This document shows, in pieces, positions 36,343 to 46,505 of a stretch of 64,000 nucleotides of DNA. Numbering within the stretch: position 1 is the stretch's first letter; the number at the start of each line of letters is the position of its first letter. The notes below the pieces were generated by a model, which did no database searches, was not told the DNA's origin, and was given only the letters and a program-made list of their open reading frames with translations. Source of the stretch: Flavobacteriaceae bacterium (lineage in GTDB: Bacteria; Bacteroidota; Bacteroidia; Flavobacteriales; Flavobacteriaceae); NCBI GenBank assembly GCA_024644725.1, contig JAHEHE010000003.1, positions 2,049 to 66,048 of the forward strand. The letters run 5' to 3'. The translations under genes were made by a program, and so were the position numbers.

Positions 36343-37059
36343 CTAAATGGTGTCTCCTTTATCTAAGCGCTCTTTGCGCACAAACTTGTATCCACTGATC
36401 ATGGAGGAGGATTCCCCCCGTCCTTCCAACCAGTCATGGTAAAACACGAGGTACACATGAACCAGGGTGAAAATGATAAACAACCAGGTCGCTATGTGAT
36501 GCACATAGCGTGTTGTCATTTCATCCCCAAGAACATAGGGTACCCAGGAGAAAAGTTTGGGTAGCCACCAACCTGAAGTCGGAGCGTAGAGTCCAAATCC
36601 TGTGAAGATCTGAACAAGAGCCAACAGAAAGAGTACCACGTAAGAAAGAGAAGCCACGTAATTGTGCCCCACACTGTGGTTCTTCAGTACTTCTTTTTCC
36701 TCGTTCTGCAGGAGAATGTCAACTTTGAGTACGTGTTTGATATTGTCCCATTCCTTTTTTGAAAGGGGGATAAAAGCCCTCCAATTCGAGTAATAGTTTC
36801 CCATGAAGGCCCAATAAATTCGGGCTACGGCATTGATCAGGAAAATATACCCTGTAGTGAAGTGTATCATTCGAACGGTTCCAAACCAGTACGAATCCAC
36901 TGCCTCGGCACTGGACATGATCCCAGGAGGATCGGCAATGATAAACCCCGTAACAGCGAGAACTGTAATGCTGAGCACATTTACCCAATGAAATATCCTT
37001 ACGGGCAATTCCCAGACCAGCACCCTCTTAAATTCATATGTCTTATGTACGGTATCCAC
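36343..37059 (-). CDS. hyaC: Ni/Fe-hydrogenase b-type cytochrome subunit
   Basis: WELPVRIFHW, RMIHF, GHN, RYVHH and TLVHVY heme ligands; ends SSMISGYK. Confidence 0.95.
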   Translation of the reverse strand: MDTVHKTYEFKRVLVWELPVRIFHWVNVLSITVLAVTGFIIADPPGIMSSAEAVDSYWFGTVRMIHFTTGYIFLINAVARIYWAFMGNYYSNWRAFIPLSKKEWDNIKHVLKVDILLQNEEKEVLKNHSVGHNYVASLSYVVLFLLALVQIFTGFGLYAPTSGWWLPKLFSWVPYVLGDEMTTRYVHHIATWLFIIFTLVHVYLVFYHDWLEGRGESSSMISGYKFVRKERLDKGDTI

Positions 37060-37096
37060 AATTTCTCAGATTTTGATTAGACTTGAAATCTTCTGG

Positions 37097-38830
37097 CTAA
37101 ACTTCACAGCTCCCTACATTACTTACTTTGGAGATGTGATTGCCATGTTCATCGTACAGGTGAACGGCACAAGCCAGGCAGGGATCAAAAGAATGCACGG
37201 TTCTTATAATTTCGAGTGGCAGCTCAGGATCGGCAACAGGCGTATCCAAAAGCGAGGACTCATACGCGGACAACTGACCATTCGGATCTCTTGGAGAAGC
37301 ATTCCACGTTGTAGGAACCACCTGCTGATAGTTCTCCGTCTTGCCGTCCTTGATTCTTATCCAGTGGGCAAGACCACCCCTTGGTGCCTCGGTGAATCCA
37401 ACTCCCTTGCATTCCGCCGGCCATTTGGAGGGTTCCCAAAGGTCCATATTCGCCATTCGCTTGTCACCATTTTTGATATTGGCCAACAGTTGATTGTAGA
37501 ATTCAAGTGTCCAGCCGCCCACGAGTTTGCTCTCGATTCCACGGGCAGCGGTTCTTCCCAAAGTCGAGAAGAGGGCGTCCACCGGAACATCAAGGTGAGC
37601 CAGTGCCCCGTTGACGGCTTCTTGGATCTCTTCATTGCCGCGGGCGTAACCCACAAGAAGTCTTGACAATGGCCCTACCTCCATAGGTTTGCCTTGCCAT
37701 CTCGGCGTTTTCACAAAACTGTATTTGCCTTCGACATCGAGGTGGTCGAAAGGAGGTTTTGGACCCGAATACTCGATGTTGGTTTCCCCGTCCCATGGGT
37801 GTCTTCCGGTTTCTGAGCCTTCGGCATAATCCGTGTACCAGGAATTGTTCACGAACTCCTCGATGTCACCGTTGCGATGATCCACATCATGCACAGTAGA
37901 AAGGTCCCGATTCAGTATGACGCCCTGCTGGAACTTGAAGTTAGACGGATCGCCGTATCCATTGGTAGGGAAATCTCCGTAAGACATGTAGTTTCCAATT
38001 CCTTTTCCAATGGCACCCCAGTCCTTGTAGAAGGAGGCAATAGCCAAGAGGTCAGGAATGTAGACCTGATCGATAAAATCATACCCATCCTTAAGAAGCT
38101 TGCCCACATGCGCCAGTCTTTCTGCGTTGAGTCCGCCTGTACTTTCCTCATTGATGGCACAGGCCATACCGCCCACCAGGTAATTCGGGTGCGGATTCTT
38201 TCCGCCGAGGATGGTGTGTACCTTTACTATTTCCTTCTGCCATTCAAGGGCCTCAAGGTAATGCGCAACTGCCAGGAGATTTACCTCTGCAGGAAGCTTC
38301 ATTTGGCTGTGTCCCCAGTACCCGTTGGCGAAAATGCCAAGTTGGCCGCTTTCCACGAACTTCTTGATTCGGTTTTGAACGTCGCTGAAATAGCCCGGGG
38401 AGCTCTTCGGCCATTTCGAAATGCTCTGTGCAATTTGAGAGGTCCCTGCCGGATCGGCGCTCAGTGCGCTTACCACATCTACCCAGTCAAGGGCATGAAG
38501 GTGATAGAAATGAACGGCGTGGTCGTGCATGTAGAGAGCCCCCTCCATGATATTTCTGACCATCTCAGCGTTGGGAGGAATCGCTATGCCCAATGCATCT
38601 TCAACCGCTCGCACCGAGGCAATGGCATGCACCGTAGTGCATACCCCGCAGGTTCTTTGTACGAAAGCCCAGACATCCCTGGGATCTCGTCCTTTTACGA
38701 TGTTCTCCAGCCCACGCACCATAGTACTTGAACTGTAGGCATCAACGATTTTTCCGTCTTTGATTTCAGCTTCTATTCTTAAGTGTCCTTCGATCCTTGT
38801 TACCGGATCAACAACGATTCTTTGTGCCAT
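37097..38830 (-). CDS. hyaB: Group 1 (1d-like) membrane-bound [NiFe]-hydrogenase large subunit
   Basis: RIEGH, L1 QRTCGVCTTVH, HPN and L2 SFDPCLACAVH plus a cleavable tail. Confidence 0.96.
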   Translation of the reverse strand: MAQRIVVDPVTRIEGHLRIEAEIKDGKIVDAYSSSTMVRGLENIVKGRDPRDVWAFVQRTCGVCTTVHAIASVRAVEDALGIAIPPNAEMVRNIMEGALYMHDHAVHFYHLHALDWVDVVSALSADPAGTSQIAQSISKWPKSSPGYFSDVQNRIKKFVESGQLGIFANGYWGHSQMKLPAEVNLLAVAHYLEALEWQKEIVKVHTILGGKNPHPNYLVGGMACAINEESTGGLNAERLAHVGKLLKDGYDFIDQVYIPDLLAIASFYKDWGAIGKGIGNYMSYGDFPTNGYGDPSNFKFQQGVILNRDLSTVHDVDHRNGDIEEFVNNSWYTDYAEGSETGRHPWDGETNIEYSGPKPPFDHLDVEGKYSFVKTPRWQGKPMEVGPLSRLLVGYARGNEEIQEAVNGALAHLDVPVDALFSTLGRTAARGIESKLVGGWTLEFYNQLLANIKNGDKRMANMDLWEPSKWPAECKGVGFTEAPRGGLAHWIRIKDGKTENYQQVVPTTWNASPRDPNGQLSAYESSLLDTPVADPELPLEIIRTVHSFDPCLACAVHLYDEHGNHISKVSNVGSCEV

Positions 38831-38841
38831 GAGTTTTGATT

Positions 38842-39972
38842 TTATTCGTTCTTGTCGAGTTTCTCCTCATTGATACGACCTCGCGTATATCGGTTCTTGA
38901 GTTCCTTGTATTTCGATACATTTGCCGCAACGGCATGAGCGGTCAATCCGGCAACCACAGCTCCTGTGGCAACCTTGCCCACAGTGTCAGCCGTACTTTC
39001 AATACCGAATCCTGGAGTGCTGCCAAGTCGCTTGTAGAAAGGACCGTTGTCCCAGAAGTTCGCTTCACTACATCCTATGCAGCCATGACCTGATTCGATT
39101 GGGAAGCTCACGCCTCCATTCCATTTCATGCTACCGCAGGCGTTATAGGTAGTGGGCCCCTTGCATCCCAGCTTGTAGAGGCAATAGCCCTCTTTCGCAT
39201 TCTGGTCATCAAAGGTCTCGGCGAATAACCCCGCGTCGAAGTAGGGTCTCCTGTAGCAAGTATCATGCACGCGCTTTCCATAAAAAGCTTTGGGTCGGCC
39301 TGCCCGGTCGAGTTCGGGAAGCCTGTCAAAGGTCACATAATGTACGATCAGGGCTGCCATTGCTTCGCCAATAGGAGGACAACCCGGCATATTGATCACC
39401 GGTTTGTTGGTGATGATCTTATTAATAGGTGTTGCGCCCGTAGGATTGGGCTTGGCTCCCTGCACACATCCATTTGTAGCACAGCTTCCCCAGGCGATGA
39501 TTGCCTTGGCCCCCTCGGCTGCTTCTTTCAGGTGGTCGAGCGCCGTTTTACCTGCAATGGTGCAGAAAACACCATTCTCACCCATCGGCACAGATCCTTC
39601 CACACACAGGATGTACTCACCCTTGTACTTCTCCATCGTATCGTGCTTGGCCGCTTCAGCCTGGTGACCAGATGCAGCCATAAGTGTTTCGGTATAATCC
39701 AGCGAAACCGTATCGAGGATGATGTCTGCAACAATGGGGTGACTGGATCTGATGAACGACTCACTGCAACACGTGCACTCCTGATAATGCTCCCAGATGA
39801 TGGGAAGTCGGAAATTGCTCTCCATGGATTTGGCAACTTGTCCGATCAGGGTGTGGTCGAGCCCCATATAGGCGGTTATAAAAGCAGCAAACTTCATGAA
39901 ATCCCTTCTGGAATAACCTTTTCGCCTGGCGCTTTCGTAATAGGTTTCCCGTATTCCTTGTTTTGTGTCCAT
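38842..39972 (-). CDS. hyaA: Membrane-bound [NiFe]-hydrogenase small subunit (Tat signal, six-Cys proximal cluster, C-terminal anchor)
   Basis: SRRDFMK, ECTCCSES, WGSCATNGC, PGCPP, HDTCYRR, FPIESGHGCIGC and a hydrophobic tail. Confidence 0.96.
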   Translation of the reverse strand: MDTKQGIRETYYESARRKGYSRRDFMKFAAFITAYMGLDHTLIGQVAKSMESNFRLPIIWEHYQECTCCSESFIRSSHPIVADIILDTVSLDYTETLMAASGHQAEAAKHDTMEKYKGEYILCVEGSVPMGENGVFCTIAGKTALDHLKEAAEGAKAIIAWGSCATNGCVQGAKPNPTGATPINKIITNKPVINMPGCPPIGEAMAALIVHYVTFDRLPELDRAGRPKAFYGKRVHDTCYRRPYFDAGLFAETFDDQNAKEGYCLYKLGCKGPTTYNACGSMKWNGGVSFPIESGHGCIGCSEANFWDNGPFYKRLGSTPGFGIESTADTVGKVATGAVVAGLTAHAVAANVSKYKELKNRYTRGRINEEKLDKNE

Positions 39973-40150: not shown

Positions 40151-40492
40151 ATGCACGAACTATCCGTTGCCATGGGCATCGTACGAATCGCCGAAGATGA
40201 GTTGGCGAAGTCATCTGCTCAGGGGATTGAACTGATTGAGCTTGAGATCGGTGACCTGGCCGGTATTGAGCTTGATTCGCTAGAATACGTGTGGGAAGCC
40301 GCCGTTAAAGGAACCGCGCTGGAAACGGCTGAGAAGAAAATACATCGCATAGGCGGAAGAGGAGTATGCCTGGACTGCGATGAGGAGTTTGAGCTGGAGC
40401 AACACTTTGACTCCTGTCCGAATTGCAACAGTTTTCTGAAGCAGATTCTTCAGGGAAAAGAGCTTAGAGTCAAGGCTCTGCAGGTTTTTTAA
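40151..40492 (+). CDS. hypA: Nickel metallochaperone HypA
   Basis: MHELS, CLDC...CPNC and GKELRV. Confidence 0.96.
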   Translation: MHELSVAMGIVRIAEDELAKSSAQGIELIELEIGDLAGIELDSLEYVWEAAVKGTALETAEKKIHRIGGRGVCLDCDEEFELEQHFDSCPNCNSFLKQILQGKELRVKALQVF

Positions 40493-40588: not shown

Positions 40589-42412
40589 ATGATTGATTCC
40601 AACTATAAGGTAAGAAAGTCGTCGTTGCTTCCCGTTCTATGGGACATTCAGAGAAAAAGAAGATTTATTTCTGAAGATGACATCACAAAAATCGCCAAGG
40701 AATTTAACATGTCGAGGATCGAACTCGAAGGTGTAATTTCCTTTTATCATTTCTTTCATACCCGTCATGCAGGTCTTTACACCATTTACCTGAACAATGC
40801 GATCGTTTCGAAGCACAAGAACTTCGAACGCGTCAAGAAGGCTTTCGAACGTGAATTGGGGATCAGCGTGGGAGAGGTCACGCAAGATCGCATGTTCGGT
40901 CTGTTCGAGACTTCCTGCATCGGTTTGAGCGACCAGGAAACGGCCGCCCTGATCAATTTTTACCCTTTCACGAACCTAACCCCTGAAAAAGTCAATACAC
41001 TCATTCGGAAACTGAGAAAAGGAGAAAGTCCGGCGAGGCTGGCAGATATTCCCAAAGACAACATCAGATATTTGCCCGAGGCGGAAAAAGTTGTTTTCTT
41101 CAAAGACTACAAACCGGGTTTGGGGCTTCAAAAGGCCATCGAAATCGCACCTGGTGAAGTTATAGATTTGGTTACAGAATCCAAACTGTCCGGCAGAGGA
41201 GGCGCATTTTTCCCAACCGGACTCAAATGGGGAATATGTCGCAGCCATGATGCGGATCAGAAGTACTTGATTTGCAACGCAGATGAGGGAGAGCCTGGCA
41301 CCTTTAAAGACAGGGTACTGATGAATCAGCACCCGGGACTGCTCTTAGAGGGTATGACCATTGCCGGGTATGCCATTGGGGCGTCCAAAGGTTTCATCTA
41401 TTTAAGAGCCGAATACTACTATCTCAAGAAGAAGATTGAAGATGCGATCGAGGAGTTCAAAGAAAAGAACCTATTGGGACGGTCCATCCTTCAGAAAGAG
41501 GGCTTCAATTTTGAAATCTTTGTCTATATGGGTGCAGGGGCATATGTCTGCGGGGAGGAAACTGCGCTGATAGCATCCATGGAAGGAAAAAGGGGAGAAT
41601 CCAGCACTAAAGAGTTCTTCCCGGTTGAACGTGGATTTCTCGATAAACCTACAGTCGTAAACAATGTGGAGACCCTGTGCGCCGTCCCAAGAATTCTTGA
41701 AATGGGTGTGGATCGGTACCTGCAAATTGGTACTCCTGCCACCCCAGGTACGAAACTGATCAGCGTCTCGGGAGACTGCGAAAGGCCCGGTATTTACGAG
41801 ATTGAATGGGGCATGAAACTCCGGGATCTGCTGAACCTGATGAAGGCCGAGGATCCCTACCTGATCCTGTTCAATGGCTATGCGGGCGAGTGCCTTTCCG
41901 AAGCCGATTTTGAACGTGAAATATCAGGAGAGAATCTGCTGGGAGAGCATATCCAGTTCGAATTCGATGACCCTATCGTGTATTCACAAAAAATGAGCGC
42001 AATTGGTCTTAGAAGTGGTGGTTCCTTTATGGTTTTCAACCGGGACCGGGACTTCATGGGCATCTTAAAGAACATCGCTGACTTTTTCGTTTCGGAATCC
42101 TGTGGGATCTGCGCCCCATGCAGAACCGGCAACTTCCTGTTGAACAAAAAGCTGCGAAAGATTGAATTGTGCCATGCGGGTAACAAGGATCTCGAAGACA
42201 TTCAGAAATGGAGTACCATTATCAAACAGTCGAGCCGATGCGGCCTGGGCAAAACCTCAACGAACTGCCTACTCACGGCAATTCTGAAATTCCCGGAGGA
42301 ATTCAAAAAATGCCTCCTCGCCGAAAGCGACTACAATGAGAGTTTCATCGTTTCCGAATTGGTTCAGGATTACGACAATATTATTCACGAAATACAGCAT
42401 ACAGATGAATGA
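40589..42412 (+). CDS. hoxF: NAD-linked hydrogenase diaphorase flavoprotein HoxF (NuoE-like + NuoF-like; Cupriavidus SH type)
   Basis: SFYHFF, FETSCIGLSDQ, CNADEGEPG, YVCGEET, NNVET and SCGICAPCR...CGLG. Confidence 0.93.
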   Translation: MIDSNYKVRKSSLLPVLWDIQRKRRFISEDDITKIAKEFNMSRIELEGVISFYHFFHTRHAGLYTIYLNNAIVSKHKNFERVKKAFERELGISVGEVTQDRMFGLFETSCIGLSDQETAALINFYPFTNLTPEKVNTLIRKLRKGESPARLADIPKDNIRYLPEAEKVVFFKDYKPGLGLQKAIEIAPGEVIDLVTESKLSGRGGAFFPTGLKWGICRSHDADQKYLICNADEGEPGTFKDRVLMNQHPGLLLEGMTIAGYAIGASKGFIYLRAEYYYLKKKIEDAIEEFKEKNLLGRSILQKEGFNFEIFVYMGAGAYVCGEETALIASMEGKRGESSTKEFFPVERGFLDKPTVVNNVETLCAVPRILEMGVDRYLQIGTPATPGTKLISVSGDCERPGIYEIEWGMKLRDLLNLMKAEDPYLILFNGYAGECLSEADFEREISGENLLGEHIQFEFDDPIVYSQKMSAIGLRSGGSFMVFNRDRDFMGILKNIADFFVSESCGICAPCRTGNFLLNKKLRKIELCHAGNKDLEDIQKWSTIIKQSSRCGLGKTSTNCLLTAILKFPEEFKKCLLAESDYNESFIVSELVQDYDNIIHEIQHTDE

Positions 42413-43673
42413 GCTAGTCAAAATCGTTATCGACGGACAAGAATACAAAGTGGCAAAAGGAAAGAAAATGGTCGATGCGGCCAAGGAGAAAGGAATTTAC
42501 ATCCCTACACTCTGTCATTTCCGTGAGATCGAGAATTCATTGGGAACCTGCCGCATATGCACGGTAAAAATCAATGGAAAACTTACCACGAGTTGTACCC
42601 AGAAGGTCGAAGAAGGCATGGAGGTGGAAGTAAACACCCCTGAACTGATCGATACACGAAAGGCCATCATAGAGATGCTCTTTGCTGAAGGAAATCACTT
42701 TTGTCCCTCCTGTGAGAAGAGCGGAAACTGTGACCTGCAGAACCTGGCTTACGACATGGGAATAACCGTGTCGCGCTTCCCTCACGTGTTCAGCAACAAA
42801 TTGAAAGATTTTAACGCCTCCCGCATGATCATGGACTCCAACCGCTGTATTCTTTGCAGTCGTTGTGTGAAAGAAATTAACACCGCCGGAGGACTGGACG
42901 TCTTTTCTTTCGTGAATCGAGGCGTGAATACCCGGGTCAGAATAGATTATGAAGAGGAGGAAAAACTCTCTGAAGCAGATGCGCTTCGCGCCATGAACCT
43001 GTGCCCGGTTGGAGCAATTCTCGTCAAGGGAATGATCCATAAGGAGCCGTTTGGCGAGAGAAAATACGACATCTTCGGCAGGAGCAAGTCGACGCCGAAA
43101 ACAACAAGTTGCTCATACAAGCGTGATGATGAGAAATTCATAGTTGCCACCACTTCCCTTGCCGGATGCTTTGGCTGCCACATGTCATTGTTGGACATTG
43201 ACCTTGAGCTGATCGACATGCTCGAGATCGTTGAATTCAACAAGTCACCTTTGACCGACATCAAGAATTTCAGCAAGCGCTGTCACGTGGGCCTGATCGA
43301 AGGGGGCTGCTGCAACTCGGAGAACGTGGAGGTCCTCCGGGAATTCAGAAAGAAATGCGACATCCTCATCGTCTTCGGCGAGTGCGCAATCATGGGGGGT
43401 ATTCCTGCCATGCGAAATTTCGTTCCGCTCAAAGAATGTCTCGAAGAGTCTTATATCCATGGGATCACAAGCGAAATTGGGGCCAATGTCATTCCCAACC
43501 ACGAAGACATCCCCAAACTTCTGAACAATGTGTACCCCTGCAACGAAATCGTGAAAATTGACCATTTCATACCCGGATGCCCTCCGAGTGCCGAACATAT
43601 TTGGAAGGCGGTCAAGAGTGTTCTGCTTGGCAAGGAAATGACCATAACACATGAAGAATTCAAATACGATTAA
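42405..43673 (+). CDS. hoxUY: HoxU-HoxY fusion (diaphorase Fe-S subunit + hydrogenase small subunit), 422 aa
   Basis: HoxU motifs IPTLC, GTCRIC, HFCPSCEKSGNC, RCILCSRC and CPVG continue in frame into HoxY motifs GCFGCHMS, EGG, GECA and PGCPP. Confidence 0.88.
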   Translation: MNELVKIVIDGQEYKVAKGKKMVDAAKEKGIYIPTLCHFREIENSLGTCRICTVKINGKLTTSCTQKVEEGMEVEVNTPELIDTRKAIIEMLFAEGNHFCPSCEKSGNCDLQNLAYDMGITVSRFPHVFSNKLKDFNASRMIMDSNRCILCSRCVKEINTAGGLDVFSFVNRGVNTRVRIDYEEEEKLSEADALRAMNLCPVGAILVKGMIHKEPFGERKYDIFGRSKSTPKTTSCSYKRDDEKFIVATTSLAGCFGCHMSLLDIDLELIDMLEIVEFNKSPLTDIKNFSKRCHVGLIEGGCCNSENVEVLREFRKKCDILIVFGECAIMGGIPAMRNFVPLKECLEESYIHGITSEIGANVIPNHEDIPKLLNNVYPCNEIVKIDHFIPGCPPSAEHIWKAVKSVLLGKEMTITHEEFKYD

Positions 43674-43684
43674 AGTCAAAGAAG

Positions 43685-45142
43685 ATGCAAAACAAAATCG
43701 TCATAGACCCCGTAACCCGTGTTGAAGGTCACGGCAAGGTAACCATCCATCTGGATGAGCAAAACAAGGTCACGGATTCCTTTTTTCACATTGTCGAATT
43801 CCGTGGCTTTGAAAAATTTGTCCAGGGCCATCCGTATTGGGAAGCTCCTGTCATGGTTCAGCGCCTCTGCGGCATCTGCCCGGTGAGTCATCATTTGGCT
43901 GCTGCCAAGGCCATTGACCGCATCGTGGGTCTGGAGCCCCATGAACTGTCTATCACCGCACAAAAGATCAGAAAGCTTTTGCACTACGGACAGATTTTTC
44001 AGTCACATGCGCTACACTTCTTCTATCTGGCATCTCCGGATTTGCTCTTTGGATTCAAGTCCAGTCCTGAAATGCGAAATGTAGTGGGTGTCGCCATGGA
44101 ATACCCTGAACTGGCCAAAAAGGGGATTCTGATGCGCAAATTCGGTCAGGAGATCATCAAGATGGTTGCCGGCAAGAAAATTCACGGGATCTCAACGACT
44201 CCCGGAGGTGTCCATAAAAAGATCACGGTGCGTGAGCGGGACTACTTCCTCAACGGGAAAGACATACCGTCCATTGACACGATGATCTCATGGTCACAGG
44301 AGATCATCGACTTCATGAAATCCTACCACGGTCAAAATGCACACTGGTTGAATGAGTTTGCGACGTACCCATCCGGGCACCTGGGTCTGGTCAACGCCAA
44401 AAACGGTTACCTGGAGCTTTACGACGGACGCTTGAGAGCTATCGATTCCATGGGGCATAAGACTTTGGACGATATTGAAGACGAGGAGTACCAGCATTAC
44501 TTTTATGAAGGTGTCGAAAAATGGTCCTATCTCAAGTTCCCATATCTCAAGCACCTGGGTCGCTCAGAGGGATGGAACCGAGTTGGGCCTCTCGCTCGCT
44601 TGAACGTCTGCGAAGGAATCTCCACGCCTTTGGCGGCCTATGAAAGACTTCAGTTTCTGGATGCCAATCAAGGGAAAACCTGCAACCGAACCATGTTCTC
44701 GCATTGGGCACGCTTGATTGAGCTCTTGCATTGTGCGGAAATGATGAAAGATCTTCTGGAAGATGACGATCTATTGAGCAATGACCTGGTCCGAAGAGGA
44801 GAGCGCAGAAATGAGGGCGTAGGAATCATCGAAGCCCCAAGGGGCACACTGATCCATCATTACCAGGTGGATGAGAAAGACAGGATCACAAGATGCAACC
44901 TGATTGTCTCAACCACCCACAACAACGAGGCTATGAATCGTGCGGTCAAATGGGTGGCCGAAAATGAAATTAGTGGAAAAGCGAAAATAGGCGAAAGCCT
45001 CCTGAATAAAGTTGAAGTGGCGATTCGAGCCTACGATCCGTGCCTGAGCTGTGCAACGCATGCTCTTGGAAAAATGCCTTTAGAGGTTTCACTTCTAGAT
45101 CACAATGGGAACACAATCGATGTCAAAAGAAAGAGCGAGTAG
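43685..45142 (+). CDS. hoxH: Group 3d [NiFe]-hydrogenase large subunit HoxH
   Basis: RVEGH, L1 RLCGICPVSH and L2 AYDPCLSCATH plus a C-terminal extension. Confidence 0.95.
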   Translation: MQNKIVIDPVTRVEGHGKVTIHLDEQNKVTDSFFHIVEFRGFEKFVQGHPYWEAPVMVQRLCGICPVSHHLAAAKAIDRIVGLEPHELSITAQKIRKLLHYGQIFQSHALHFFYLASPDLLFGFKSSPEMRNVVGVAMEYPELAKKGILMRKFGQEIIKMVAGKKIHGISTTPGGVHKKITVRERDYFLNGKDIPSIDTMISWSQEIIDFMKSYHGQNAHWLNEFATYPSGHLGLVNAKNGYLELYDGRLRAIDSMGHKTLDDIEDEEYQHYFYEGVEKWSYLKFPYLKHLGRSEGWNRVGPLARLNVCEGISTPLAAYERLQFLDANQGKTCNRTMFSHWARLIELLHCAEMMKDLLEDDDLLSNDLVRRGERRNEGVGIIEAPRGTLIHHYQVDEKDRITRCNLIVSTTHNNEAMNRAVKWVAENEISGKAKIGESLLNKVEVAIRAYDPCLSCATHALGKMPLEVSLLDHNGNTIDVKRKSE

Positions 45143-45578
45143 GACCCTGGTTTTGGGCATAGGGAACTGCGGCCGCAAAGATGACGGTTTGGGCTGGAAA
45201 TTCATCGACTTTTTAAAGGAGCAGAAAATCGAAGATCTGGACCTGGATTATCGTTATCAACTTCAGATTGAGGACGCTGAACTGATCTCAAATTACGACC
45301 GTGTAATTTTTGTAGATGCCACAAAAGAGCCCACAACGGATGGCTTCTATTTAAGGCCCTGCTCCAAGGTCGGGATGACGGAAATGAACAGTCACAGTCT
45401 GCATCCAGAGACCGTTTATTCCCTGTGCTCTGCCGTCTATGACAAGAATCCGGAGTGCCTGATAATGGGTATAGAGGGAAAAGACTGGGGGCTCGAAACA
45501 GGACTGAGCTCTGAGGCCGAAAGTAACCTGGAACGTGCCAAACGTTACTTCATTGCTCATCTTTTTGTGTATCTTTGA
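45120..45578 (+). CDS. hoxW: Hydrogenase maturation protease HoxW
   Basis: VLGIGN..RKDDGLG, YQLQIE, VIFVDA and SHSLHP. Confidence 0.88.
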   Translation: MSKERASRTLVLGIGNCGRKDDGLGWKFIDFLKEQKIEDLDLDYRYQLQIEDAELISNYDRVIFVDATKEPTTDGFYLRPCSKVGMTEMNSHSLHPETVYSLCSAVYDKNPECLIMGIEGKDWGLETGLSSEAESNLERAKRYFIAHLFVYL

Positions 45579-45608: not shown

Positions 45609-46505
45609 ATGTGCGGAACCTGCGGTTGCGGCTCACCCGACGGCAAAGCCGTTCTTCGTAAGCCATCTCAAAATCACGCCCATCAAGGTGATCACGAACA
45701 CGATCATAGTCACGGACACGATCATAGTCACGGACACGATCACCATCATCATCATGAGGAGGGTCACCCCCACTCCCATGGACATTCTCACGATCATGAA
45801 CATGCGCATGGACATAGTCATGGACACAGCCACCAGCATCATGATCACGATCACAAGAGTACGGTGCTCGAGGTGGAAAAGAACATACTGCTTCAGAATG
45901 ACATGCAGGCAGCACGAAACCGTGGGTATTTTGAAGCCAAGCAAATATTGGCGCTAAACCTGGTCAGCTCCCCGGGGTCAGGAAAAACTTCGATCCTGGA
46001 GCGAACTCTGAAGGACTTGAAAGAAGAGATATCTTTCACGGTGATTGAAGGCGATCAGCAGACCCTCCAGGATGCCAACCGAATTGATGCGCTTCAGATT
46101 CCCGTGATTCAGATCAACACCGGCAAAGGCTGCCACCTGGAAAGCGACATGGTCTTTGATGCTGTTAAAGAGCTGGCTCCAAAAGACGACTCTATACTGA
46201 TGATTGAGAACGTGGGCAACCTGGTCTGTCCGTCCATGTTTGACCTGGGTGAAAAACATCGAATTGTCATTCTCAGCATTACCGAAGGAGAAGACAAGCC
46301 CCTGAAATACCCGGATATGTTTCATTCCTCTGACATCTGCCTGATCAACAAAATAGATTTGCTTCCACACCTGAACTTTGACCTGGATAAACTCAAAGAA
46401 TACGCATTACAGGTGAATCCGAATCTGCAATTCTTCGAGATCTCAGCAACGACAGGTGAGGGAATGCAACACTGGTATGACTGGCTGAAAAATGCCAGAA
46501 AATAG
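45609..46505 (+). CDS. hypB: Nickel GTPase HypB with CxxCGC and a His-rich insert
   Basis: MCGTCGC, 31 His in 60 residues, SSPGSGKT, GCHL, ENVGNL and NKID. Confidence 0.96.
   Translation: MCGTCGCGSPDGKAVLRKPSQNHAHQGDHEHDHSHGHDHSHGHDHHHHHEEGHPHSHGHSHDHEHAHGHSHGHSHQHHDHDHKSTVLEVEKNILLQNDMQAARNRGYFEAKQILALNLVSSPGSGKTSILERTLKDLKEEISFTVIEGDQQTLQDANRIDALQIPVIQINTGKGCHLESDMVFDAVKELAPKDDSILMIENVGNLVCPSMFDLGEKHRIVILSITEGEDKPLKYPDMFHSSDICLINKIDLLPHLNFDLDKLKEYALQVNPNLQFFEISATTGEGMQHWYDWLKNARK
45699..45734 (+). repeat. Perfect 18-bp tandem repeat x2 (HDHSHG) in hypB
   Basis: CACGATCATAGTCACGGA twice. Confidence 0.9.

What the first reader, a model, noticed from the sequence alone, without database searches (positions are those of the whole stretch)
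42405..43673. HoxU-HoxY fusion covalently joins the diaphorase and hydrogenase modules
Seen: one stop-free 422-aa frame with complete HoxU Fe-S motifs, a short linker (about 43070-43135, GRSKSTPKTTSCSYKRDDEK) and then HoxY. Known: in Cupriavidus, cyanobacteria and Thiocapsa these are separate subunits, and the HoxFU and HoxYH modules can dissociate. Inference: a three-subunit, non-dissociable NAD-reducing hydrogenase, useful for cofactor-regeneration engineering. I know of no characterised example.
Basis: partly seen in the sequence, partly recalled or inferred. Interest (0 to 1): 0.72.

Follow-up and report, generated by a model that had tools for sequence, protein, structure and literature searches.

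The report
Natural HoxU-HoxY fusion in NAD-linked hydrogenase
One gene in this flavobacterium really does encode both the iron-sulfur subunit of the NADH-handling half and the small subunit of the hydrogen-splitting half of a soluble [NiFe] hydrogenase; this is a conserved and widespread but apparently undescribed three-gene variant of a well-known enzyme, not a sequencing error.

Summary
Window 42405-43673 (+) is one 422-aa ORF. Residues 1-222 are a complete HoxU, residues 223-243 are a linker, and residues 244-422 are a complete HoxY. It sits in a hypA-hoxF-hoxUY-hoxH-hoxW-hypB-hypC operon.

All four structural parts match the Hydrogenophilus thermoluteolus NAD+-reducing hydrogenase (PDB 5XF9, chains A-D) best. 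All 16 Fe-S ligands are invariant across diverse fused homologues.

It is not an indel artefact:
- Four independent assemblies and the Lutimonas halocynthiae isolate align without gaps across the junction.
- The top 120 database homologues are all fused.
- The genome has no separate hoxU or hoxY.

On a HoxH tree, 43 fused operons form one clade (support 100/99). It spans Flavobacteriaceae, Chitinophagaceae, Saprospiraceae, Cyclobacteriaceae, Hymenobacteraceae and Balneolaceae. Its sister clade has split genes (Bacteroidales, Aminicenantes, Spirochaetota). A second, independent fusion occurs in Woeseiaceae and Psychromonas.

The linker is constrained in length (19-27 aa) but free in sequence.

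Six full-text searches found no paper describing a natural fusion. Non-dissociability remains an inference.

Verdict: real, a new variant of a known kind, of moderate interest.

The parts
40151..40492 (+). hypA, nickel metallochaperone; first gene of the plus-strand operon
   Evidence: TIGR00100 hypA, E 1.3e-23 (83.2 bits, just below the 88.1-bit curated cut-off); ORF
40589..42412 (+). hoxF, 607 aa. NuoE-like N-terminal domain that lacks the [2Fe-2S] cysteines, followed by a NuoF-like FMN/NAD(H) module with a [4Fe-4S] site
   Evidence: Pfam 2Fe-2S_thioredx 4-142, Complex1_51K 195-368, NADH_4Fe-4S 492-574. Best PDB match 5XF9_A over residues 26-582. Only one Cys (TSCIGLSDQ) where NuoE has its cluster motif, as in 5XF9_A (TACAGLSDQ)
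42405..43673 (+). hoxUY, a single 422-aa ORF (the finding)
42405..43070 (+). HoxU module, residues 1-222: one [2Fe-2S] and two [4Fe-4S] sites
   Evidence: Aligns to 5XF9_B 15-228. The AF2 model matches 5XF9_B with TM 0.80, normalised to the target. Ligands are invariant
43071..43133 (+). Linker, residues 223-243 (IFGRSKSTPKTTSCSYKRDDE). Hydrophilic, K/P/E/S/N-rich across relatives, variable in sequence and constrained in length
   Evidence: The commonest residue per column averages 0.27 of sequences, against 0.72-0.84 in the domains. Length is 19-27 aa in the main clade, mode 21-22. Lowest pLDDT of the model away from the C-terminus: 58 for residues 231-240. No in-frame ATG, GTG or TTG between residue 223 and M260
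43134..43673 (+). HoxY module, residues 244-422 plus stop: small subunit with the proximal [4Fe-4S] site only
   Evidence: Aligns to 5XF9_C 11-189. The AF2 model matches 5XF9_C with TM 0.92 and rmsd 1.9. C255, C258, C327 and C392 are invariant
43685..45142 (+). hoxH, [NiFe] large subunit, 485 aa, with RLCGICPVSH and DPCLSCATH motifs and a C-terminal extension
   Evidence: Best PDB match 5XF9_D, 526 bits. Pfam NiFeSe_Hases. PF27537 HoxH is on record for the gene in this position in the assemblies whose HoxUY is 95% identical
45105..45578 (+). hoxW, the maturation endopeptidase specific to the large subunit; overlaps hoxH by 38 nt
   Evidence: TIGR00072 hydrogenase maturation protease, 64.9 bits, above its cut-off. 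A gene in this position is conserved in nearly all related operons
45609..46505 (+). hypB, with a long His-rich N-terminal tract
   Evidence: TIGR00073, 279.8 bits
46523..46786 (+). hypC
   Evidence: TIGR00074, 81 bits

Best explanation
hoxUY is a genuine, selectively maintained fusion of the formerly adjacent hoxU and hoxY genes of a soluble, NAD(P)-linked group 3d-type [NiFe] hydrogenase.

The enzyme is built from three polypeptides instead of four: HoxF, HoxUY and HoxH. The inferred electron path is unchanged from the known enzyme: NAD(P)H/FMN and a [4Fe-4S] cluster in HoxF, then the [4Fe-4S] clusters of the HoxU module (with its [2Fe-2S] beside them), then the proximal [4Fe-4S] of the HoxY module, then the Ni-Fe site of HoxH.

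The fusion most likely arose by loss of the hoxU stop codon and read-through of the short spacer. The ~21-residue flexible linker replaces the HoxU C-terminal tail, the spacer and the HoxY N-terminus.

Its inferred effect is to tether the diaphorase and hydrogenase modules covalently at the interface where they are known to separate in the four-subunit enzymes. It also fixes a 1:1 stoichiometry of the U and Y modules.

Shown here: the gene architecture, the cofactor ligands, conservation, phylogenetic distribution and fold. Inferred: that the polypeptide stays uncleaved, that the modules do not dissociate, the cofactor specificity and the physiological direction of the reaction.
For: - The ORF and its domains are confirmed.
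- End-to-end homology to HoxU and HoxY of 5XF9 leaves 19 unaligned residues here (223-241), where the split enzyme has 14 unaligned residues at the HoxU end plus 10 at the HoxY start.
- HoxH and HoxF match 5XF9_D and 5XF9_A best.
- All 16 cluster ligands are invariant in fused homologues down to 32% identity.
- The 120 best homologues are all 406-433 aa and carry both domain sets.
- 20 of 401 Flavobacteriaceae genomes carry a strong hit in one open frame with no stops. The window's own genome has no separate hoxU or hoxY.
- The junction DNA aligns without gaps in four independent assemblies and one isolate.
- On the HoxH tree the 43 fused operons form one clade with support 100/99. Exactly 2 state changes are needed in every bootstrap tree.
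- The sister split operons have hoxU-hoxY gaps of 4 to 73 nt, or a 4-nt overlap (a gap value of -3 in the script's count, which runs one high).
- Linker length is conserved while its sequence is free.
- The AF2 model built on a 135-row alignment has pLDDT 84 and pTM 0.80, with a dip at the linker. Its halves match 5XF9_B and 5XF9_C.
- HydDB classes the Phaeodactylibacter xiamenensis enzyme as group 3d (PMC5037454). MAGs of that genus lie in the fused clade.
Against: - There is no protein-level evidence. The linker is lysine-rich and of low model confidence, so it could be cut by proteases to give an ordinary four-chain enzyme.
- I could not superpose the model on chains B and C of 5XF9 together. 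The relative placement of the domains therefore rests on pTM alone.
- NAD versus NADP specificity and O2 tolerance are unknown.
Confidence: 0.85

Rival explanations
1. The gene is fused, but the mature enzyme is not. The linker is cleaved after translation, giving ordinary HoxU and HoxY chains. The fusion would then serve only co-translation, stoichiometry or assembly.
For: The linker is hydrophilic and K/R-rich. Its sequence is poorly conserved (commonest-residue fraction 0.27). It is the least confident internal part of the model (pLDDT 58).
Against: No conserved cleavage motif exists in the linker. Its length is held to 19-27 aa over a clade reaching down to about 50% identity, which fits a spacer with a geometric role. 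No dedicated protease gene lies in the operon apart from hoxW, whose known substrate is the C-terminus of the large subunit (established knowledge).
Confidence: 0.12
2. The fusion is an assembly or sequencing artefact: an indel at the junction merged two genes.
For: The genome is a draft of 161 contigs. Reads could not be inspected.
Against: The junction aligns without gaps in ENA and Logan assemblies from different samples and in an isolate genome. The same frame is seen in the 120 best homologues and in 43 tree rows. In the split relatives a stop codon separates the two reading frames and each carries its own start codon; the frames lie 4-73 nt apart or overlap by 4 nt. None of this is seen here.
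Confidence: 0.01
3. The operon is not a simple NAD-linked hydrogenase. It is instead an electron-bifurcating NiFe-HydABCSL-type enzyme or an Mvh-type (group 3c) enzyme.
For: The second-best PDB matches are the Acetomicrobium mobile HydABCSL chains: 7T2R_D at 484 bits, plus 7T2R_E and 7T2R_A. NCBIfam's top hit for HoxH is VhuA, but far below its cut-off (401 against 800 bits).
Against: - All four parts match 5XF9 chains better.
- The HoxU module is 222 aa, not a ~690-aa HydA.
- HoxF ends 33 residues after its NADH_4Fe-4S domain, with no extra ferredoxin domains.
- The NuoE-like domain lacks its [2Fe-2S] cysteines.
- No heterodisulfide reductase or separate HydC gene lies in the operon.
Confidence: 0.03

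Closest known systems
Hydrogenophilus thermoluteolus NAD+-reducing soluble [NiFe] hydrogenase, HoxFUYH (PDB 5XF9/5XFA)
   Same: It is the best PDB match for every part: HoxF 308.6 bits, HoxU 146 bits, HoxY 170 bits and HoxH 526 bits. It has the same cluster-ligand motifs and the same cluster-less NuoE-like N-terminus in HoxF. The model's halves superpose on chains B and C at TM 0.80 and 0.92.
   Different: There HoxU (242 aa) and HoxY (189 aa) are separate chains. Here they are one 422-aa chain joined by a 21-aa linker. Sequence identity is only about 36-46%.
Cupriavidus necator soluble hydrogenase (HoxFUYHI2) and cyanobacterial/Thiocapsa HoxEFUYH
   Same: Same enzyme class (group 3d), with the same modular logic of a diaphorase module plus a hydrogenase module. 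Those modules can be isolated separately (PMC3189943 and PMC7363133, abstracts seen).
   Different: They have separate hoxU and hoxY genes. They carry extra subunits (HoxI or HoxE) that are not seen in this operon.
Split-gene hoxFUYHW operons of Bacteroidales, Marinilabiliales, Aminicenantes and Spirochaetota (loci L001-L005, L051-L088)
   Same: They form the sister clade on the HoxH tree. Gene order is the same. Identity to the window is 55-61% for HoxH, 40-51% for HoxU and 48-63% for HoxY.
   Different: hoxU and hoxY are two ORFs lying 4 to 73 nt apart, or overlapping by 4 nt.
Other fusions in the complex I / hydrogenase superfamily: the NuoG N-terminus, the HoxU-like N-terminus of [FeFe] HydA, and NiFe-HydABCSL HydA
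   Same: The same HoxU-like Fe-S module (Fer2_4 + NADH-G_4Fe-4S_3 + Fer4) is found covalently joined to another redox module.
   Different: In those proteins the partner is a molybdopterin-like domain or an H-cluster domain. It is never the NuoB-like [NiFe] small subunit.

Membership tests
Group 3d NAD(P)-linked soluble [NiFe] hydrogenase (Hox/SH) | Large subunit HoxH with the N-terminal RxCGxCxxxH and C-terminal DPCxxCxxH Ni-Fe ligand motifs, closest to known 3d enzymes | tested here: met
   RLCGICPVSH and DPCLSCATH are present in the translation. Best PDB match is 5XF9_D at 526 bits. PF27537 HoxH is on record for the 485-aa gene in this position in the assemblies whose HoxUY is 95% identical. 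The Phaeodactylibacter enzyme is classed as 3d by HydDB.
Group 3d NAD(P)-linked soluble [NiFe] hydrogenase (Hox/SH) | Short small subunit (~180 aa) that binds only the proximal [4Fe-4S] cluster | tested here: met
   Residues 244-422 align to all of 5XF9_C. C255, C258, C327 and C392 are invariant. No medial or distal cluster region is present.
Group 3d NAD(P)-linked soluble [NiFe] hydrogenase (Hox/SH) | HoxU: a NuoG-N-terminus-like subunit with one [2Fe-2S] and two [4Fe-4S] sites | tested here: met
   Pfam and NCBIfam HoxU match over residues 5-214. All 12 ligands are invariant.
Group 3d NAD(P)-linked soluble [NiFe] hydrogenase (Hox/SH) | HoxF: a NuoF-like FMN- and NAD(H)-binding subunit encoded in the same operon | tested here: met
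   Complex1_51K and NADH_4Fe-4S domains. Match to 5XF9_A over residues 26-582.
Group 3d NAD(P)-linked soluble [NiFe] hydrogenase (Hox/SH) | Dedicated HoxW endopeptidase | tested here: met
   TIGR00072 at 64.9 bits, above the 47.45-bit cut-off.
Group 3d NAD(P)-linked soluble [NiFe] hydrogenase (Hox/SH) | Canonical subunit composition: HoxU and HoxY as separate polypeptides | tested here: not met
   They are a single ORF, with no internal start codon before the first two cluster cysteines. This is what makes it a variant.
Group 3d NAD(P)-linked soluble [NiFe] hydrogenase (Hox/SH) | H2:NAD(P)+ oxidoreductase activity | not testable with these tools
   This needs an enzyme assay.
Electron-bifurcating NiFe-HydABCSL | A long HydA (~690 aa), a separate HydC carrying a [2Fe-2S] cluster, and a HydB with extra ferredoxin-type clusters | tested here: not met
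   The HoxU module is 222 aa. The NuoE-like domain is fused to HoxF and lacks its cluster cysteines. HoxF has no extra Fe-S domains.

The most novel reading that the evidence does not exclude
The fused clade is a mechanistically distinct subclass of soluble hydrogenase, in which HoxF-HoxUY acts as one covalently coherent electron-transfer cassette that docks onto HoxH. In some genomes two different hoxF-hoxUY cassettes precede a single hoxH: Winogradskyella alexanderae (L047), and probably G309 (L012), where the contig ends before the first hoxF. There the cassettes would be interchangeable, giving one catalytic subunit two cofactor couplings or two redox tunings. The tether would also make the enzyme more resistant to module loss than the Cupriavidus enzyme.
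Probability: 0.15. Interest if true: 0.7.

Novelty: new variant of a known kind. Interest (0 to 1): 0.45.

Why it matters
Soluble NAD-reducing hydrogenases are studied as H2-driven systems for regenerating NADH. The abstract of PMC12809855 (seen) names the low stability of the best-studied enzyme as a practical limit. The diaphorase module has also been studied in isolation (PMC3189943, PMC7363133; abstracts seen).

Nature has built a tethered version and kept it across a large clade, and has built it at least twice. The clade includes cultured isolates: Lutimonas halocynthiae, Lutibacter citreus, Winogradskyella alexanderae and Botryobacter ruber. This gives ready-made sequences, and a natural linker design of 19-27 hydrophilic residues, for testing whether tethering improves stability.

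It also matters for annotation. These proteins are currently named '2Fe-2S iron-sulfur cluster-binding protein', 'NADH-quinone oxidoreductase subunit B family protein' or 'diaphorase moiety small subunit'. Surveys that require a separate hoxY or hoxU gene may therefore miscount Hox operons in Bacteroidota.

Tried and rejected
- **Read-level check.** I substituted independent assemblies.
- **First AF2 run.** A shallow alignment of 18 closely related rows gave pLDDT 50 and pTM 0.36, which was unusable. It was replaced by a 135-row alignment that mixes fused and split relatives.
- **The search for related loci coverage.** It reported 'query residues 1-422' for all 80 loci. That looked like universal fusion, but ORF-level checking showed 37 of the 80 are split adjacent genes.
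- **Suspected long-linker fusions.** In one search, G683 and G660 showed an open frame of 460 aa for both halves. ORF analysis showed they are split.
- **Literature.** Six full-text searches found no description of a natural fusion. I read the context in four papers. The hits concern engineered PSI-Hox fusions or unrelated uses of the words.
- **TGATGATG as a vestige.** I considered whether it is a leftover stop/start overlap. I rejected this because it is absent in 95%-identical relatives.
Full report
**Observation.** The frame is as described. An ATG at 42405 overlaps the hoxF stop (ATGAATGA), and the frame runs without a stop to the TAA at 43671-43673, giving 422 aa. Pfam places Fer2_4 (4-78), NADH-G_4Fe-4S_3 (85-124) and Fer4_Nqo3 (143-205) in the first half and Oxidored_q6 (255-404) in the second. 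NCBIfam's HoxU model covers residues 5-214, and its [NiFe] small-subunit models cover 244-415.

Against solved structures, residues 9-222 align to HoxU 15-228 of 242 (5XF9_B), and residues 242-422 align to HoxY 11-189 of 189 (5XF9_C). Both belong to the Hydrogenophilus thermoluteolus NAD+-reducing hydrogenase. The join is therefore essentially end to end. The 19 residues left unaligned (223-241) stand where the split enzyme has 14 unaligned C-terminal residues of HoxU and 10 unaligned N-terminal residues of HoxY.

**Context.** The gene lies in the operon hypA (40151), hoxF (40589), hoxUY, hoxH (43685), hoxW (45105), hypB (45609) and hypC (46523).
- HoxH carries the RLCGICPVSH and DPCLSCATH motifs and matches 5XF9_D best, at 526 bits.
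- HoxF matches 5XF9_A over residues 26-582. This includes a NuoE-like N-terminal domain that, as in that structure, keeps only one cysteine where NuoE binds its [2Fe-2S] cluster.
- There are no extra ferredoxin domains, no long HydA and no separate HydC. A bifurcating HydABCSL-type enzyme is therefore not supported.

- The 120 best database homologues (70-98% identity) are all 406-433 aa and have both domain sets. They include isolates of Lutimonas, Seonamhaeicola, Namhaeicola and Abyssalbus.
- In 401 Flavobacteriaceae genomes, 20 have a strong hit (E below 1e-100). Every such hit lies in one open frame without stops. Most span the whole query, and a few are cut by contig ends. The window's own genome has no separate hoxU or hoxY.
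- Contigs from different ENA and Logan samples encode proteins 95-98% identical and of the same 422 aa. Their DNA, and that of the Lutimonas halocynthiae isolate, aligns to window 43030-43170 without a single gap.
- The out-of-frame TGATGATG is not conserved in these sequences.
- There is no in-frame ATG, GTG or TTG between residue 223 and M260. A separate HoxY that keeps its first two cluster cysteines therefore cannot be translated from an internal start.

**Distribution and origin.** A scan of species-representative genomes returned 80 loci. ORF-level inspection showed 43 fused and 37 split; the tool's '1-422' coverage had hidden this. I added loci from the phylum search and built a HoxH tree of 94 operons.

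In the careful IQ-TREE run, the 43 fused operons that include the window form one clade with support 100/99. The fused/split character needs exactly two changes in every bootstrap tree.
- **Fused clade:** Flavobacteriaceae, Chitinophagaceae, Saprospiraceae, Haliscomenobacteraceae, Lewinellaceae, Cyclobacteriaceae, Hymenobacteraceae, Balneolaceae, one Chlorobiota MAG, and two MAGs labelled Gammaproteobacteria and Lysobacterales.
- **Sister clade, all split apart from the fused pair below:** Bacteroidales, Marinilabiliales, Lentimicrobiaceae, Aminicenantes, Spirochaetota, Thermodesulfobacteriota and others. Their hoxU-hoxY gaps range from 4 to 73 nt, with one 4-nt overlap.
- **Second fusion:** a Woeseiaceae plus Psychromonas pair is nested inside the split clade (support 99 in the quick tree).
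- **More distant fused proteins:** these include a 412-aa protein of Anaeromyxobacter diazotrophicus at 31-32% identity.

With the distant split operons as outgroup, parsimony reads both events as gains. This direction is an inference.

**Anatomy of the join.** Across 61 fused sequences, 59 of them from the main clade, the linker is 19-27 residues (mode 21-22); the one exception is 33 residues in Psychromonas. It is rich in K, P, E, S and N. The commonest residue per column averages 0.27 of sequences, against 0.72-0.84 in the two domains. All 16 Fe-S ligands are invariant in fused proteins down to 32% identity.

An AlphaFold2 model built on a 135-row alignment reached pLDDT 84 and pTM 0.80, with its lowest internal confidence in the linker (58 for residues 231-240). 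Its two halves match 5XF9_B (TM 0.80) and 5XF9_C (TM 0.92, rmsd 1.9 Å). I could not superpose both chains at once, so the claim that the domains sit as they do in the four-subunit enzyme rests on pTM only.

**Mechanism.** The cofactor wire is that of the known soluble hydrogenase. The only change is a covalent tether between the last diaphorase subunit and the hydrogenase small subunit. That is the interface at which the HoxFU/HoxEFU and HoxYH modules are known to separate (PMC3189943 and PMC7363133, abstracts). The likely consequences are an obligatory 1:1 stoichiometry and resistance to loss of a module. This is inferred, not shown. The main live rival is cleavage in the linker, at about 0.12.

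**Novelty.** Six full-text searches found no description of a natural HoxU-HoxY fusion. Subscription journals are not covered by the library. HydDB lists a Phaeodactylibacter enzyme, of a genus with members in the fused clade, simply as group 3d. A 2026 MAG paper lists hoxF, hoxU, hoxY and hoxH for a Cyclobacteriaceae MAG without comment. Database names do not reflect the fusion.

I rate it a new variant of a known kind: real, widespread, easily testable and of practical interest to people who engineer hydrogenases. Fusion of adjacent subunit genes is a common evolutionary event, and nothing suggests new chemistry. Interest is 0.45.

Noticed in passing
L047:484-7568 (Winogradskyella alexanderae D23) and L012:1380-7951 (G309:C127): In L047 the operon reads hoxF1-hoxUY1-hoxF2-hoxUY2-hoxH. 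In L012 it reads hoxUY1-hoxF2-hoxUY2-hoxH-hoxW, and the contig ends before any hoxF1. UY1 is about 70-73% identical to the window protein and UY2 about 55-57%. So two diaphorase-plus-fused-small-subunit cassettes (complete in L047) sit in front of one large-subunit gene. They may be alternative electron-transfer modules for one catalytic subunit.
   Followed up: partly
L090:1518-2783 (Woeseiaceae MAG), L092:3049-4365 (Psychromonas MAG), P0134 (Anaeromyxobacter diazotrophicus WP_176064234.1): The same two genes are fused independently outside the Bacteroidota clade. The first two are nested among split operons on the HoxH tree. The Anaeromyxobacter protein is only 31-32% identical to the window protein. 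Psychromonas has a 33-aa linker.
   Followed up: partly
L029 and L049: Two MAGs labelled Gammaproteobacteria and Lysobacterales carry fused operons that sit deep inside the Bacteroidota fused clade, next to Phaeodactylibacter. This is either horizontal transfer or a binning error.
   Followed up: no
window 36343-39972 (-): A respiratory-type uptake [NiFe] hydrogenase lies divergently upstream of the hox operon. It comprises a small subunit (376 aa), a large subunit (577 aa) and a cytochrome b (238 aa). The organism therefore has both a membrane-linked and a soluble enzyme.
   Followed up: no
window 45609-45860 (+): HypB begins with a tract of about 70 residues that is very rich in His, Asp and Gly (HDHSHGHDHSHGHDHHHHHEEGHPHSHGHSH...). 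It is probably a nickel-storing region.
   Followed up: no
window 42405-42412 and 45105-45142: The gene junctions are tight. hoxF and hoxUY overlap by 8 nt, and hoxH and hoxW by 38 nt. This is consistent with co-translation of the whole set.
   Followed up: no
tool behaviour: the search for related loci reported full query coverage (1-422) for loci in which hoxU and hoxY are separate adjacent ORFs. Coverage from that tool cannot be read as evidence of fusion.
   Followed up: yes
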